From: an uncultured Methanosarcinaceae archaeon | GTDB taxonomy: Archaea; Halobacteriota; Methanosarcinia; Methanosarcinales; Methanosarcinaceae | Assembly (NCBI GenBank): GCA_963833425.1 | Contig: CAWHXP010000003.1 | Coordinates: forward strand, 512,001 to 576,000 | Length of the DNA stretch: 64,000 bases | Direction of reading: 5' to 3' | Shown here: in pieces, positions 39,191 to 42,523 of the stretch | Layout of the letters: each line of letters begins with the position of its first letter | How positions within the stretch are numbered: position 1 is the first letter of the stretch | Position numbers and translations under genes: made by a program | Notes under the pieces: generated by a model | Seen by the model: only the letters and a program-made list of their open reading frames with translations | Told to the model about the DNA's origin: nothing | Database searches by the model: none

Positions 39191-40330
39191 GTGAAACAGG
39201 AAAACGATTTCATAGTTTTTCATGGTAATCTGCAACAGTTAATGGAAAAAGTGGAAACTGGAGAGATGATCCCCAAGCTTCAGGCTTCCCACTCTCCAAT
39301 GTGCAAATTTTTTTACAGCCTATTACGTCATCAGCGGGATCCGTCATGTAGTTCCCCTGGTCCACGGTCCGACCGGGTGTCCGCTGTACATGTCAGATTT
39401 TGTAAGGACACGGGAATGCTGCGAGATCCGTGGAGTTCCATTAGAACCCACAGCTTGCACCTCGCTAGACGAAAGCTATGTCATACGGGGGTGAGGGAAA
39501 ACTACTGGAAGCAGTAAAGGAAGCATACGCTAAGTACCACCCAATCTCATCGTCATTCTCTCTTGCTGCTGCTCCGGGATCATCGGTGATGACGTCGAAA
39601 GCATTGCTCGCGAGGCAGAGAAGTTGGTTGGCTGCCGGGTGCTTTGACTGGGGACAGAAGCTGGGTGACTTGATGCAAGAACGGTTTTCGGCATTCCTTA
39701 CAGCCAGACTGGGCAGCCCTATGGCCCTGAGGCCACAAAGGAATGGCTGCTCGGCGTGGCAACACCTCTTGGCATGGAGGCAGCAGCTATTAAAGTGATT
39801 AAACGAGAGATGCAGGAAGTAGAACCGGGAATTGCATATTTAAGACAGGCTCTCTCCGAAAAAACGGCTATTGTAGAAATATCGGAATTTCCAGGGCCTA
39901 TACGAGCGCTTTCCATGCACTGATGGCAGCAGAGTTTGGTGCCCATCCTGTCGTGATCAACGTCCATCCATATACAATCAAGGAACGTATGCCCAGCATC
40001 AAGTTTCTCCTGGAAACCGGGGTTAACCCGGAGATTATTCTGACAAAAGGACTCTTCCGGCTAGGGAGCCTTCGATCGTCCAAAGAGACCGAGGCCGAGC
40101 TAGAGGCGATTGTTAAGGAATATGATAACCCTATCTTCTTTGGGAATTCAGGCCGGTTTCCTCCCTGTCCAGTGGTGAACTTAACACTCATGAACCCATC
40201 GTTTCAGCCCCAGTACGGCTTCCGGGGAATTAGGAACATCTCCGCTCTAGTCAGACAGGCACTTGAGAACAAAGATCTCCTCCGCTCTCGATTGTTTAAG
40301 GGGATGCTCTATGGAACAAGGAAATTTTAA
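39191..40330 (+). pseudogene. Nitrogenase component-1 family protein (NifD/NifE-like subunit A), disrupted
   Basis: Reconstructed across frameshifts: PMCKF, VHGPTGC, CTSLDESYVI.GGEGKLLEAV, ILSCCCSGIIGDDVE, PYGPEATKEWL, QYGFRGIRN. Confidence 0.8.
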
Positions 40331-41668
40331 GGAAACTGCTGGGCCATCAACGTCTTCCTCGGAGACGCGCACCGACCCATACCTTCGGTGTGCTTTCAAC
40401 GGTGCCGCCCTGACTGCACTTGGAGTCTCTCGTTCTGCACTCCTTGCTCATTCCCCGCAAGGATGTGAGTATCTAGTCAACAATGCATTTGCCTCGCAGG
40501 AGTGCGACTATATGGAAACAATGACCATCTGTACCAAGCTCTGCGTGGACGAGATCGTGTATGGTGGAGAGGACATCCTTGCCCGCACAATCCTGGAGGT
40601 AAAAGATCTCTCGATCTCTGCCTTTTTCGTGCTTAGTGTATGTGGGCCCGAAATTGTGGGCGACTATATTGTAGCGGTATGCGAGGCCCTGCAGCCAGAA
40701 GTGAAGTTCCGACTAGTTCCGATTGAATGTGCAGGGTTCCGAGGATCGCAGTACGATGATATCGACATCGCGATGGATACGATACTAAAAAAGCTGGTAA
40801 AAGACGACGTAGATAAAGTATCTGGTTCTGTCTGCCTTGTAGCTCCCCATGCCAATGCCAATCCGACATGGCCAGCAGGTCTGGCATGGGTGAAACAGGT
40901 TCTTTATCGGATGGGCATTAAGGTTGTAGCCACGCTCACACACCAGACTCCAATTTCTGAAATCGAAAACATCGCATCCGCTGAGCCCTCCTTCCTGCTG
41001 AGCCATGATGCTGGTCAGAAAGCATCAGATTACCTTTTTGCGAGTATGACATCGAGTAGATATGTAAAGGGATACCCTTGCCAATAGGGATGACAAACAC
41101 GCAGCTTTGGCTGACAGTTCTAGGAGAGCGATTCGATGTGGTGAAAAAGGTGGAGGAGATCGTTGCAGAAGGCGAAAGGATGGTGATGGCAACTTGTCGA
41201 CGTAAGTGGCCGATGGCGAGGTTTCTGTACCGGACTCCGATAGCTATTGTTGCCGATGCAACAGTCGGGATTCCTCTAGTCCGGTTTGTCACCGAGGAGA
41301 TGGAGATGACCCCGGAGCTTGTTGCCTTGTATACCTCGCAGAAGCCGAGTCGGGAACTTCTGGAGTTGGAACTCCAGAGCCTCGGGCTCAATCCGAAAAT
41401 CGTTTACGGAACAGACGTGTATAAAACACGGAAGAGTCTACTTGATGTCAGGCCACGGGTTGTGTTCGGTAGCACCATCGAAAGGCATGCCAGTGAGGGA
41501 CTTCCCGTGGCCTATGTTGTCGAGGTAGTTAGGATGATTCGCCAGTTTAGGATGATCAATCGGGAATACTTCGGATATACAGGCATATTAAATCTATTCG
41601 AGTGCGTTCAGAACGAGTGGACTATGGGATGGCGTTCGAAAGAAAGAAGATATGAAGCAAAATGGTGA
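40311..41668 (+). pseudogene. Nitrogenase component-1 family protein (NifK/NifN-like subunit B), one frameshift
   Basis: LRCAFNGA, HSPQGC, CTKLCVDEIVYGGEDIL, LSVCGPEIVGD, CAGFRGSQ, PIGMTNT, FGSTIERH, YFGYTG; frameshift near 41040. Confidence 0.85.
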
Positions 41669-42523
41669 CGGCATATGAGACAGATCGCTATCTATGGCAA
41701 AGGGGGGGCATCGTGAAGAGCACGATAACTTCAAACCTGTCTGCCGCATTACATGCGATGGGGCACACGGTAATGCAGGTAGGATGTGATCCAAAGAGAG
41801 ATTCGACGAAGGATCCTTCCAGAGGGAAAGTTTATTCCCGCGGTACTGGAAGAGCACCGAGAATAGCTGAGGTTAGGAAAAGACGAATATGCAATAAATT
41901 TGAACAAACCAGTCTTCAAATAACCCAGTCGGATCTACCTTGTCGAAGCGGGAGGACCGGAACCGGGTATTGTGTATGCTGGTCGAGGTGTGCTTACCTC
42001 ACTGCAAATCCTAAAGGACCTCAAGGCGTTTTCGACCTACAACATCGACGTGGCAATTTACGATGTCCTCGGTGACGTCGTATGTAGTGAATTCTCGATG
42101 CCTATCCGCGAAGGGTTTGCAAAAGAAATTTATCTCATCTGTTCTGGCGGTTTTATGAGTATCTATGCTGCAAACAACATTGCTAGGGCGGTGTAGCGCC
42201 TCGCAAAGCGGGAGGATACCGGCCTCGCAGGGATTATCTGCAACAGCAATGGTAATGAAGCATTTGAGCATGCAGTCATCCCAGCTTTTGCAAAAAAGCT
42301 GGGGACCCCATTTGTCCAGTTTGTCCCCCGGAGTTCCGTGATCCAGGCATGTGAACTGGAAGGGAAACCTGTTGTGGAGCATTCCCCAGATTCACTAGAA
42401 GCGAAAATATTTCGGAACCTTGCAAAAGCGATAATGGAAAATGATTCGCTGGTGATCCCAACGCCAGTGAACGACTTTGCCGAGCTTGAAATGATATACA
42501 GGCAGCATCTGGTGAAGATTTAA
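41662..42523 (+). pseudogene. NifH/BchL-family Fe protein, disrupted
   Basis: [72 protein letters not shown]; frameshifts and TAG at 42194. Confidence 0.9.

What the first reader, a model, noticed from the sequence alone, without database searches (positions are those of the whole stretch)
39191..42523. Stand-alone nitrogenase-like operon in D-K-H order
Seen: two overlapping component-1 genes and a NifH-like gene, visibly more GC-rich than the flanks. Each component-1 subunit keeps three cluster-type Cys (A: MCKF, HGPTGC, SCCCSG; B: RCAF, HSPQGC, SVCGP). There are no nifB, nifEN, nifI or cfb neighbours. I could not see FeMo-cofactor ligand motifs, though subunit A has an internal deletion. 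Established: true nif operons run H-(I)-D-K, CfbCD uses one component-1 subunit, and divergent two-subunit Nif-like enzymes such as Mar reduce other substrates. Inference: an uncharacterised heteromeric nitrogenase-like reductase, horizontally acquired and now dead here (P-loop G>V, GxGCAG Cys>Tyr). Neighbouring methyltransferases, ABC exporter and decarboxylase-like amidohydrolase may hint at a small-molecule pathway.
Basis: partly seen in the sequence, partly recalled or inferred. Interest (0 to 1): 0.7.

Follow-up and report, generated by a model that had tools for sequence, protein, structure and literature searches.

The report
Dead nitrogenase-like D-K-H operon copy
This stretch is a broken, non-functional copy of a three-gene nitrogenase-like enzyme system of unknown function that is otherwise intact and strongly conserved in many methanogens and some anaerobic bacteria.

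Summary
Window 39191-42523 (+) carries nflD-like, nflK-like and nflH-like genes in D-K-H order, at 0.50 GC against 0.36 for the rest of the window.

All three genes are dead. Against the closest intact relative there are 9 frameshifting indels, including a 287-nt deletion in D, and 4 premature stops. H has also lost its P-loop glycine and one [4Fe-4S] cysteine. The upstream ABC exporter genes are broken too.

The lesions are real. A second copy in the same genome shares them, and independent contigs match them exactly.

The intact family was found at 79 loci in methanogens, Bathyarchaeia, Chloroflexota and Acidobacteriota. None shows H before D and K. Nine Chloroflexota loci and one Bathyarchaeota locus add nifB after H.

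The family meets no curated cut-off for NifD/K/E/N or CfbD and matches MarD only weakly. Its nearest relatives are the two genes in the vnfE/vnfN position of Methanosarcina vnf clusters, at 36-38% identity.

It keeps six P-cluster-type cysteines and the Cys275 equivalent but lacks a His442 equivalent. Its function is untested.

The Methanosarcinales copies nest inside Methanoregulaceae sequences, which points to horizontal transfer. In the genus, 5 of 11 carrier genomes hold decayed copies.

This scan had already found the intact family on other DNA.

The parts
37295..38249 (+). ABC exporter ATPase gene (DrrA-type), pseudogene in this copy
   Evidence: About 90% amino-acid identity to the intact L055 gene. 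L055's own gene scores 330.8 bits on TIGR01188 drrA, above the 312.45 cut-off. Lesions here: 1-nt deletions at 37408 and 37853, and stops at 37465 and 37627. All are absent from the copy on contig C4.
38224..39002 (+). ABC-2 type permease gene, pseudogene in this copy
   Evidence: 1-nt deletion at 38387 and stops at 38547 and 38883. The gene is intact in the C4 copy and in L055.
39191..40330 (+). nflD-like (alpha-type component-1) pseudogene
   Evidence: Lesions relative to intact L055 D (475 aa): +1 at 39308, -2 at 39483, -1 at 39543, -287 at 39637/39638, +2 at 39685, -1 at 39915. Surviving cysteine codons: C38 at 39302-04, C63 at 39378-80, C127 at 39567-69, and C247 (the Cys275 equivalent) at 39640-42.
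39637..39638 (+). junction of the 287-nt deletion in D (removes about residues 150-246, including the family-invariant Cys229)
   Evidence: Seen in the alignment to L055. The C4 copy shares it. An X1 contig spans 39618-39782 with 0 differences. An X2 contig from a roughly 96% identical relative breaks away at 39638 into 231 further letters. The 30 reported letters look like coding sequence for the deleted segment, by my own reading; I did not align them.
40311..41668 (+). nflK-like (beta-type component-1) pseudogene; overlaps the end of D
   Evidence: PF00148 at E 3.7e-37 and 1.3e-19 for the two pieces. 1-nt deletion at 41041, and CAG to TAG at 41057-59. Cysteine codons C43, C68 and C127 are kept.
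41675..42523 (+). nflH-like (Fe-protein) pseudogene
   Evidence: PF00142 on three pieces. +2 at 41711 and +1 at 41808. Stops at 41864 (this copy only), 41921 and 42194. P-loop Gly to Val at 41713-15. Cluster-ligand Cys to Tyr at 41975-77. VCGGF changed to VCSEF at 42083-91.
39191..42500 (+). cassette nearly identical to a second copy at G000:C4 (about 26080-29450, minus strand)
   Evidence: Matching bases, window against C4: D 1132 of 1140, K 1338 of 1338, H 846 of 849. The ABC ATPase, permease and spacer just upstream are only 89%, 83% and 78% identical. The change is sharp, falling between 39075 and 39271 on the left and at 42375-42520 on the right.
42556..42709 (+). 84-nt and 73-nt scraps resembling ABC ATPase and permease genes, downstream of H
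   Evidence: blastn of L055 against the window: L055 7072-7155 matches 42556-42638 (81%), and 7701-7773 matches 42637-42709 (82%). There is also a weak tblastn permease hit at 42636-42875.
43460..44521 (+). intact Amidohydro_2 gene; a paralogue lies beside the C4 copy
   Evidence: PF04909 at E 9.6e-41. An 85% identical stretch lies at C4 23776-25180. It is not a neighbour of the operon in the other loci.
44841..45700 (+). IS6/IS240-type insertion sequence with split transposase ORFs
   Evidence: DDE_Tnp_IS240 on ORFs 44906-45238 and 45189-45608. More than 100 similar stretches occur across the genome's contigs.

Best explanation
Window 39191-42523 is a decayed, non-functional copy of a conserved three-gene nitrogenase-like (NFL) operon, nflD-nflK-nflH. 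The ABC exporter genes just upstream (37295-39002) are also broken in this copy.

Inferred mechanism in intact relatives:
- H is a NifH-type ATPase dimer with a bridging [4Fe-4S] cluster. It passes electrons, at the cost of ATP, to a D2K2 heterotetramer.
- The D/K interface holds a P-cluster-type centre bound by three cysteines from each subunit.
- D holds a second, NifB-made [Fe8S9C]-type cofactor. It is anchored by the Cys275-equivalent cysteine and a further ligand not yet identified.
- At that cofactor an unknown small substrate is reduced.

What is shown: family membership, the conserved ligand set, the D-K-H order, linkage to nifB at 10 loci (9 Chloroflexota, 1 Bathyarchaeota), and the lesions here.

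What is inferred: the cluster types, by analogy with MarDK, NifDK and NifEN, and catalysis itself.

History: an ancestor of the Methanosarcinales carriers received the operon from a Methanoregulaceae-like donor. It evolved under purifying selection for most of its divergence from the nearest intact copies. It was then inactivated in this lineage. The dead D-K-H cassette now sits at two loci of this genome in almost identical form.
For: Genes and lesions:
- Pfam hits on the K and H pieces and PF00148 hits on the D pieces.
- The codon-by-codon comparison with intact L055 shows 9 frameshifting indels and 4 stops in D, K and H, plus the loss of a P-loop Gly and a cluster Cys in H.
- The C4 copy carries the same 9 indels.
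- X1 contigs match with 0 differences over 39237-39574, 39618-39782, 40909-41235, 41758-41950 and 41927-42199.
- An X2 contig from a different study, from a ~96% identical relative, runs on past the deletion junction at 39638. It also has indels within a few bases of two of the window's frameshift sites (near 39685, and at 39915).

The family:
- 79 loci were recovered. D-K-H order is seen at 53. Only K-H or only D-K is seen at 20, mostly at contig ends. The other 6 are fused or cut. None shows H before D and K.
- A search with a relative's K (476 aa) scored 712 proteins at E <= 0.001. The best 120 listed are 439-453 aa long and 80-92% identical.
- Cys38, Cys63, Cys127 and Cys247 are each conserved in 62 of 62 D proteins. 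Cys43, Cys68 and Cys127 are each conserved in 66 of 66 K proteins. They align with the P-cluster and Cys275 positions of this genome's NifD and NifK.
- A nifB-like gene (TIGR01290, 253 bits against a 343.65 cut-off, no NifX domain) follows H at 10 of 79 loci.
- In 2 of 2 Chloroflexota genomes searched, this D and K are the only PF00148 genes.
- The AlphaFold model of D (pLDDT 83, pTM 0.84) matches MarD best (9fmg_A, E 1.8e-21, TM 0.68). Clostridium NifD and NifE follow.

Selection. dN/dS for the window against L040 is 0.058 for D, 0.099 for K and 0.146 for H. Between intact L055 and L040 it is 0.043, 0.097 and 0.034.

Transfer.
Against: No member of the family has been tested. No paper on it was found in five full-text searches. 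Cluster types and catalysis therefore rest on analogy.

The nearest relatives sit in the vnfE/vnfN position, and the family lacks a His442 equivalent. Both fit a scaffold role as well as an enzyme role.

No named Mar, Isr, Nfa or Group VI sequence could be put in my trees. Mar was represented only by this genome's two Mar-like genes.

X1 may be the sample the genome came from, so it is not biologically independent.

The near-identity of the two cassettes could in principle come from assembly or polishing rather than from biology.

No RNA evidence either way was obtained.
Confidence: 0.85

Rival explanations
1. In intact relatives the family is not an enzyme but a cofactor scaffold or maturase, like NifEN/VnfEN. 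It would have its own Fe protein and, in bacteria, its own NifB. It would build or hold an L-cluster-type cofactor for another protein. The window copy would then be a dead maturase operon.
For: D and K are sister to the genes directly downstream of vnfK in Methanosarcina vnf clusters. The clades have SH-aLRT 99 and 100, identity is 36-38% over the full length, and both share the HPYTIKER...LTKG segment.

The best NCBIfam model for both subunits is nifE.

The Cys275 equivalent is present and the His442 equivalent absent, as in NifE. Dos Santos 2012 describes that pattern (section 11 read).

D-K-H-NifB is the minimal cofactor-assembly set.

One source (JGI) names some members VnfE.
Against: In 2 of 2 Chloroflexota genomes searched no other PF00148 protein exists, so there is no nitrogenase-type client.

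Six P-cluster-type cysteines are invariant. This suits electron delivery to a resident cofactor. The contrast with a simpler [4Fe-4S] site in A. vinelandii NifEN is recalled, not tested here.

The maturase cysteine at NifD position 48 (Garcia 2022, passages) has no counterpart in the family.

The operon always carries its own H.
Confidence: 0.2
2. The family is a divergent member of a characterised sulfur-acquisition NFL group: a methylthio-alkane reductase (Mar) or an isethionate reductase (Isr). It would cleave C-S bonds.
For: MarD is the top fold match and ties for the top sequence match in the PDB.

A TPMT/TehB-type methyltransferase, a family that methylates thiols, directly follows H at 13 of 79 loci.

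The family has six P-cluster cysteines plus the cofactor cysteine, as in Mar (passages of PMC12552129).
Against: D scores only 110 bits against MarD. This genome's two Mar-like genes score 242 and 288 bits, and they sit in a different clade.

The order is D-K-H rather than B-H-D-K.

I recognised no cysteine or methionine synthase genes in the neighbourhood listing, but most neighbour ORFs were not scanned against any family library.

The 2026 mBio screen found Mar activity only in Group IV-C. [quoted passage not shown]
Confidence: 0.1
3. The genes are intact in the organism, and the breaks are sequencing or assembly errors.
For: The genome is a 21-contig assembly with only 80% marker completeness. 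One lesion is a T6-to-T7 homopolymer change at 39308. Several other genes in the window are split.
Against: The lesions include a 287-nt deletion, four nonsense codons and two active-site substitutions. The same 9 indels occur in a second copy. Contigs of run X1 agree exactly over five stretches that together cover 12 of the 13 indels and stops in D, K and H. Long ORFs of 1818, 1275 and 929 aa in the same window are unbroken.
Confidence: 0.03

Closest known systems
The two genes in the vnfE/vnfN position of Methanosarcina V-nitrogenase clusters (L014 12822-14450 and 14354-15775, directly after vnfH-I1-I2-D-G-K)
   Same: These are the nearest relatives of both subunits. D is 36.5% identical over residues 5-470, and K is 38% identical over residues 29-465. 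The sister clades have SH-aLRT 99 and 100. Shared features: His34, Cys77, Cys229, Cys247 and His355 of D, Cys90 and Cys140 of K, three P-type cysteines per subunit, and no His442 equivalent. Both score far below the nifE cut-off, at 154-162 bits against 505.
   Different: Those genes lie inside a vnf operon, behind verified VnfD, VnfG and VnfK, and have no H gene of their own behind them. The family studied here stands alone as D-K-H. It also occurs in genomes that have no nitrogenase. The biochemical role of the archaeal genes is assumed from their position; I saw no test of it.
Methylthio-alkane reductase MarBHDK (Group IV-C NFL; PDB 9FMG, 9D9U)
   Same: Both are two-component systems with an Fe protein and a D2K2 core. 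Both have six P-cluster cysteines and a cofactor cysteine. Both are linked to a NifB-type gene. MarD is the best fold match (passages of PMC12552129).
   Different: D scores 110 bits (E 8.8e-31) against MarD, no better than against NifD. The gene order differs. The family sits in a separate clade from this genome's Mar-like genes. Mar's His429 lies on a Mar-specific loop; whether the family has a counterpart was not tested.
NifEN, the FeMo-cofactor maturase
   Same: nifE is the best curated model for both subunits. The Cys275 equivalent is present and the His442 equivalent absent. The fold is similar (9onk_A, E 3.6e-17).
   Different: The scores are less than a third of the nifE cut-off. This genome's true NifE groups with NifD, VnfD and AnfD, away from the family. 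The family is not next to nifDK and has its own H.
Nitrogenase NifHDK / VnfHDGK / AnfHDGK
   Same: Same superfamily (PF00148 and PF00142). The family has a P-cluster-type cysteine set and a Cys275 equivalent.
   Different: The order is D-K-H, not H-D-K. There is no His442 equivalent. There are no nifI, nifEN or G-subunit genes. Scores are far below cut-off: nifD 121 bits against 653, nifK 50 against 427.
[quoted passage not shown]
   Same: H scores almost as well on the CfbC model (331.6 bits) as on nifH (333.2 bits). Both are under their cut-offs.
   Different: CfbD is a single subunit. D scores 44.7 bits and K 24.9 bits against the 268.4 cut-off. The genome's real cfb cluster is on contig C8.

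Membership tests
Nitrogenase superfamily (component 1, PF00148, plus Fe protein, PF00142) | Significant match to both Pfam models above their gathering scores | tested here: met
   Window pieces score 128.6 and 70.8 bits for K, and 46.5, 87 and 30.4 bits for H. D scores 60.5 bits. Intact relatives score 234.6 bits (D) and 249.9 bits (K).
Nitrogenase proper (NifDK/VnfDK/AnfDK) | Cofactor ligands Cys275 and His442 in the alpha subunit | tested here: not met
   The Cys275 equivalent is present in 62 of 62 D proteins. No histidine aligns with His442 in any of the 15 aligned members. This rests on the alignment and was not checked on a structure.
Nitrogenase proper (NifDK/VnfDK/AnfDK) | Curated NCBIfam equivalog scores (nifD, nifK, VNFD, ANFD, vnfK, anfK) | tested here: not met
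   Scores against cut-offs: nifD 121 against 653; nifK 50 against 427; VNFD 67 against 823; ANFD 65 against 874.
Nitrogenase proper (NifDK/VnfDK/AnfDK) | Operon order H-(I1-I2)-D-(G)-K with nifEN and nifB in the genome | tested here: not met
   D-K-H order at 53 of 79 loci, and no locus with H first. No nifI or nifEN was found beside the operon.
NifEN/VnfEN maturase | Curated nifE and nifN equivalog scores | tested here: not met
   nifE scores 154 bits (D) and 115 bits (K) against 505. nifN scores 49.5 and 34.6 bits against 326.8.
NifEN/VnfEN maturase | Location beside the structural nitrogenase genes it serves | tested here: not met
   The operon stands alone at all 79 loci. Two of two Chloroflexota genomes searched have no other PF00148 gene.
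NifEN/VnfEN maturase | Phylogenetic placement with maturases | tested here: inconclusive
   The family is sister to the Methanosarcina vnfE/vnfN-position genes (SH-aLRT 99 and 100). It is apart from this genome's NifE and NifN. It was a quick tree, and no bacterial NifEN was included.
Methylthio-alkane reductase (Group IV-C) | Close sequence relationship to MarD and MarK | tested here: not met
   D scores 110 bits against 9fmg_A and K scores 77 bits against 9d9u_C. This genome's Mar-like D genes score 242 and 288 bits and fall in another clade.
Methylthio-alkane reductase (Group IV-C) | His429 ligand on the MarD-specific loop; hydrocarbon release from volatile organic sulfur compounds | not testable with these tools
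   This needs a structure with the cofactor bound, or an assay.
CfbCD | Single homomeric D subunit; TIGR03282 and NF033200 cut-offs | tested here: not met
   There are two different subunits. D scores 44.7 bits against 268.4. H scores 331.6 bits against 402.
DPOR/COR (BchLNB, BchXYZ) | Curated BchN/B/Y/Z and BchL/X scores | tested here: not met
   The best scores are BchB at 75 bits (D) and 113 bits (K) against 490, and BchL at 197 bits against 345.
Named NFL Groups IV-A, IV-D, IV-E, IV-F and VI | Placement in a tree with the published reference sequences | not tested
   No named sequences of these groups were available to the tools. The mBio 2026 supplements held as text contain none of five terms naming this family's organisms or its M. 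acetivorans accession.

The most novel reading that the evidence does not exclude
The D-K-H(-NifB) family may be an autonomous enzyme with nitrogenase-type clusters (a P-cluster plus an [Fe8S9C] cofactor) in organisms that do not fix nitrogen: Chloroflexota, Bathyarchaeia and many methanogens. It would carry out a still unknown ATP-driven reduction. One possibility is reduction of a chalcogen or thiol-forming compound whose product the adjacent TPMT-like methyltransferase methylates. It may also be the stock from which Methanosarcina recruited its vnfE/vnfN-position scaffold. That would give a living example of the 'maturase-like ancestor of unknown function' invoked for the early history of nitrogenase. 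Its repeated decay in Methanosarcina would mark it as a conditionally useful, horizontally traded trait.
Probability: 0.3. Interest if true: 0.8.

Novelty: new variant of a known kind. Interest (0 to 1): 0.45.

Why it matters
The copy in this window is a relic and does nothing. The family it belongs to matters more, for four reasons.

- It is one of the nitrogenase-like lineages with the full set of ligands for large nitrogenase clusters but no known reaction.
- It is very strongly conserved: D is 60-99% identical from Chloroflexota to Methanosarcina.
- It carries its own nifB in the Chloroflexota loci.
- It is the nearest relative of the archaeal genes in the vnfE/vnfN position.

An intact member is recorded in Methanosarcina acetivorans C2A, a methanogen that can be genetically manipulated, so the function can be tested directly.

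Two further points bear on gene turnover in methanogens. The operon decayed independently in 5 of the 11 carrier genomes of this genus. A dead cassette is also shared by two loci of one genome.

Dead copies like this one can also be miscounted as nifH or nifD in surveys of nitrogen fixers.

Tried and rejected
Earlier notes of this scan, searched by place around the window: nothing.

Literature:
- Searches for the M. acetivorans member by accession, UniProt id and guessed locus tags found nothing relevant. The locus tags were my own guesses.
- A search of the 4 supplementary files of PMC13753814 held as text for Methanosarcina, Methanoregula, AAM05041, Dehalococcoid and Anaerolinea gave 0 files with occurrences. 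Supplements of the bioRxiv preprints were not opened.

Neighbouring clades: PDB look-ups for P0133 and P0138 gave no chain at E <= 1e-30.

Expression: RNA run X15 laid 0 contigs on the stretch. That says nothing about expression either way.

Pfam: the four D fragments gave no hit at E 0.01 on their own. The whole-genome scan found them later.

Calculation error: the first dN/dS run for K used a start out of frame and gave meaningless values above 2. I discarded it and repeated the run in frame.

Readings considered and rejected:
- Programmed frameshifting or recoding. The deletion is 287 nt, which is not a multiple of 3. It removes about 96 codons, and H has lost catalytic residues.
- Assembly error (see the rivals).
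- The window's LCM-type methyltransferase fragment (36555-36962) and O-methyltransferase (42656-43249) as functional partners. Neither belongs to the TPMT-like family that accompanies the operon elsewhere.

Not done: no complex prediction was run. A pass for D with K would only reflect likeness to solved nitrogenase structures.

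
Full report
**What is there.** On the + strand, 39191-42523 holds a run of short overlapping ORFs. Pfam assigns two of them (40263-41087 and 41078-41668) to nitrogenase component 1, PF00148, at E 3.7e-37 and 1.3e-19. 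It assigns three (41662-42075, 41972-42196 and 42338-42523) to the NifH family, PF00142. The four pieces between 39191 and 40330 gave no Pfam hit alone. A whole-genome PF00148 scan and tblastn with an intact relative both recognise them as a second component-1 gene. The order is therefore D-like, K-like, H-like. GC is 0.496 here, against 0.364 for the rest of the window and 0.358 for the genome.

**It is a pseudogene cluster, and the breaks are real.** The closest intact relatives are two Methanosarcinaceae loci, L040 and L055. In both the order is ABC ATPase, ABC permease, D (475-479 aa), K (468 aa), H (281 aa), and a TPMT-like methyltransferase.

Aligned to L055, the lesions are as follows:
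- D: +1 at 39308, -2 at 39483, -1 at 39543, -287 at 39637/39638, +2 at 39685, -1 at 39915.
- K: -1 at 41041, and CAG to TAG at 41057.
- H: +2 at 41711, +1 at 41808, and stops at 41864, 41921 and 42194. It also has a P-loop Gly to Val, a cluster-ligand Cys to Tyr, and VCGGF changed to VCSEF.
- Upstream ABC ATPase: two frameshifts and two stops.
- Upstream permease: one frameshift and two stops.

Three observations argue against sequencing error.
- A second copy on contig C4 of the same genome has the same nine indels in D, K and H.
- Contigs of run X1 match the window without a single difference over five stretches. Together these cover 12 of the 13 indels and stops in D, K and H. X1 may be the source sample.
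- A contig of run X2, from another study and about 96% identical, runs on past the deletion junction at 39638 with 231 further letters. The 30 reported letters look like coding sequence for the deleted segment; that is my own reading and was not aligned. The same contig has a 1-nt deletion at 39687 and an extra T behind 39691, close to the window's 2-nt insertion at 39685. It also has an extra T behind 39915, the base that L055 has and the window lacks.

dN/dS against L040 is 0.058 for D, 0.099 for K and 0.146 for H. Between the intact pair L055 and L040 it is 0.043, 0.097 and 0.034. A first K value was out of frame and was discarded. Most of the divergence therefore built up under purifying selection, and inactivation came late.

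**Two loci, one dead cassette.** Between the window and C4, D is identical at 1132 of 1140 aligned bases, K at 1338 of 1338, and H at 846 of 849. The ABC ATPase, the permease and the spacer just upstream are only 89%, 83% and 78% identical. The switch is abrupt at both ends of D-K-H. In the C4 copy the ABC genes are intact. C4 also keeps the TPMT-like gene (in two frames), an amidohydrolase paralogue (85% identical) and a DUF169 gene. The window copy has lost the methyltransferase. It carries two short scraps of ABC genes behind H. The simplest reading is gene conversion, or copying of the already dead cassette, between two older paralogous loci. An assembly or polishing artefact is not excluded.

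**The family.**
- A search with the intact K of a same-genus relative scored 712 proteins at E <= 0.001. The best 120 listed are 439-453 aa long and 80-92% identical. The names given are Methanosarcina, Methanoregula and Methanoregulaceae.
- In the species-level genome collection, 94 stretches encode a relative. The best 80 were kept, as 79 loci: 57 Methanobacteriota, 2 Halobacteriota, 2 Bathyarchaeota, 16 Chloroflexota and 2 Acidobacteriota.
- D-K-H order is seen at 53 of the 79. Only K-H or only D-K is seen at 20, mostly at contig ends. Six are fused, cut or masked by shadow ORFs. None has H first.
- A nifB-like radical-SAM gene follows H at 10 loci, 9 Chloroflexota and 1 Bathyarchaeota. It scores 253 bits on TIGR01290 over positions 8-274, against a cut-off of 343.65.
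- A TPMT/TehB-type methyltransferase (PF05724, 54.7 bits) directly follows H at 13 loci and lies within the locus at 17.
- An ABC ATPase plus permease directly precedes D only in L040 and L055, and in this genome's two copies.
- Among 1.84 billion cluster representatives, D has one full-length cluster of its own (91% identity), then two proteins at 39% and 36%, then a drop to 33% and below.
- The D cluster holds AAM05041.1, 'nitrogenase associated protein E' of Methanosarcina acetivorans C2A. It also holds proteins that one source (JGI) names VnfE.

**What it is not, and what it is nearest to.**
- Against NCBIfam, no subunit reaches a curated cut-off. D's best model is nifE at 154 bits against 505. 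K's best is nifE at 115 bits. H scores 333 bits on nifH against 394, and 332 bits on CfbC against 402.
- Against solved structures, D matches Clostridium NifD (E 1.9e-31) and MarD (9fmg_A, E 8.8e-31) about equally. The Nat Catal 2025 paper identifies 9FMG as the Mar complex (passages).
- This genome's two other NFL alpha genes, on C8 and C16, match MarD at 288 and 242 bits. They serve as stand-ins for the Mar-like group.
- In a 135-row quick tree (LG+G4, SH-aLRT) the D family (support 100) joins the Methanosarcina gene in the vnfE position and one unnamed protein (support 99). The K family joins the gene in the vnfN position (support 100). Both are separate from NifD/VnfD/AnfD/NifE, from NifK/VnfK/NifN, and from the Mar-like clade.
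- The vnf labels were checked. The genes before that pair pass the VNFD, vnfG and vnfK cut-offs. The pair itself scores only 162 and 129 bits on nifE.
- Identity to that pair is 36.5% for D and 38% for K over the full length, against 22-30% to every other paralogue.
- Garcia et al. [quoted passage not shown] This family is a candidate for that stock. That link is my inference.

**Ligands.**
- Invariant in 62 of 62 D proteins: His34, Cys38, His52, His58, Cys63, Cys77, Cys126, Cys127, Cys229, Cys247 and His355.
- Invariant in 66 of 66 K proteins: Cys36, Cys43, His63, Cys68, Cys90, Cys94, Cys127, Cys140 and His409.
- D Cys38, Cys63 and Cys127, and K Cys43, Cys68 and Cys127, align with the P-cluster cysteines of this genome's NifD and NifK. 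D Cys247 aligns with the cofactor ligand in the C-H-R-S motif. No histidine aligns with the I-H-S-Y-D histidine. The residue numbers Cys62/88/154/275 and His442 are recalled A. vinelandii numbering; they match the numbering used in the papers read.
- Dos Santos et al. 2012 (section 11 read in full) described this signature for a broad class of NifE/N-related pairs found in Proteobacteria, Archaea, Firmicutes and Fibrobacteres. The class was therefore noticed long ago.
- In Mar the second ligand, His429, sits on a Mar-specific loop that sequence analysis had missed. The lack of an aligned histidine therefore does not exclude a second ligand here. Cys229 and His355, both shared with the vnfE-position gene, are candidates.
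- The AlphaFold model of D (34-sequence alignment, pLDDT 83.1, pTM 0.84) matches MarD best (E 1.8e-21, TM 0.68). Clostridium NifD (E 1.3e-19) and NifE (9onk_A, E 3.6e-17) follow.

**Enzyme or scaffold?** In 2 of 2 Chloroflexota genomes searched (G042, G043) this D and K are the only PF00148 genes. A Bathyarchaeota genome has one further pair. Two archaeal genomes add a CfbD-sized gene, and one of them also adds four genes of nifDKEN size. A maturase with no nitrogenase-type client is hard to picture. I therefore prefer an autonomous reductase (about 0.65 within the family-level question) over a scaffold (about 0.2). The substrate is unknown. The TPMT-like neighbour hints at a thiol- or selenol-forming reaction, but that is weak inference. 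Reviews and screens from 2026 list Groups IV-A, B, C and F as having assigned functions and D and E as unknown. They name bacterial hosts only (passages). A 2023 preprint notes that methanogens contain further nitrogenase-like proteins of unknown function (passage).

**History.**
- In a concatenated D+K+H tree of 39 loci plus the window (read through with X at the breaks), the window groups with L055 and L040 (support 100). The Methanosarcinales clade (support 99) nests inside Methanoregulaceae sequences under several branches with support of 95 or more. I rooted the tree on the Chloroflexota/Bathyarchaeota group.
- Acidobacteriota and Chloroflexota members are interleaved with archaeal ones.
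- GC3 of D-K-H here is 0.50-0.56, against 0.25-0.46 for 14 other genes of this genome, including its own nif and cfb genes.
- Across the 64 loci with enough flanking sequence, the operon is more GC-rich than its flanks in 7 of 7 Methanosarcinales loci, by 8-14 points.
- In the genus, 11 of 59 genomes have a D orthologue (at least 73% identity at the matches). Six have an unbroken frame. Five are disrupted, each in its own way:
  - this genome;
  - G005, with one frameshift each in D and H;
  - G019, with a TGA in D and several frame changes in K and H;
  - G050, with D in four frames and H reduced to residues 237-280;
  - G070, with an internal deletion in D, K gone, and H reduced to residues 230-273.
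- Single frameshifts in draft genomes could be errors. The large deletions cannot be.
- The methyltransferase stays full-length beside four of the decayed copies.
- G046, a complete single-contig genome, has an intact D-K-H-methyltransferase row.

**Earlier work of this scan.** The scan met the intact family before on other DNA (e1-3090179) and called it an uncharacterised D-K-H reductase nearest to Mar. It also met a Dehalococcoidales four-gene cassette (e1-2084473). My results agree. They add the sister relationship to the vnfE/vnfN-position genes, the repeated decay, and the shared dead cassette.

**Verdict.** The object in this window is a relic. The family behind it is a genuine open question within a known kind of system.

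Noticed in passing
G000:C8:260562-262954 and G000:C16:87436-91597 (same genome, outside the window): There are two further nitrogenase-like gene sets. Their alpha subunits match MarD of the solved methylthio-alkane reductase at 288 and 242 bits (E 1.1e-84 and 6.3e-71). One lies next to ABC transporter genes. The other has a divergently placed NifH-like gene. The 2026 papers I read describe verified Mar enzymes in bacteria only, so Mar-like systems in a Methanosarcina may deserve a look.
   Followed up: partly
window 39191-42500 against G000:C4 about 26080-29450: The dead D-K-H cassette is 99.3-100% identical between two loci. Their adjoining ABC genes are only 83-89% identical, and the boundaries are sharp. 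This looks like gene conversion or copying of a pseudogene cassette, unless it is an assembly artefact.
   Followed up: partly
L112 (G050), L113 (G070), L013 (G019), L015 (G005): The same operon has decayed independently in four other species of the genus, each with different lesions. The TPMT-like methyltransferase next to it stays full-length.
   Followed up: partly
L051, L052, L083: In three Methanomicrobiales or Methanobacteriota loci the place of K and H is taken by a single ORF of 716-725 aa whose best match is H. This suggests a K-H fusion.
   Followed up: no
window 44841-45700: An IS6/IS240-type insertion sequence with its transposase split into two ORFs. More than 100 similar stretches occur across the genome's contigs.
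   Followed up: partly
window 6784-7610, 25576-26314, 27250-28692: More split or truncated genes: a DUF772/DDE transposase in two ORFs, a histidine phosphatase in two ORFs, and fragments of a 2-hydroxyacyl-CoA dehydratase component and its activator ATPase. The genome seems rich in pseudogenes.
   Followed up: no
window 13030-18486 (-): An intact 1818-aa protein with DUF4011, AAA_11/AAA_12 helicase, MTES_1575 restriction-endonuclease-like and DUF3320 domains. It is a large helicase-nuclease of the kind found in defence islands.
   Followed up: no
L113 (G070) and window 41057-41059: Some of the in-frame stops in decayed copies are TAG, which Methanosarcina can read as pyrrolysine. This does not rescue the genes, because frameshifts and deletions accompany these stops.
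   Followed up: no
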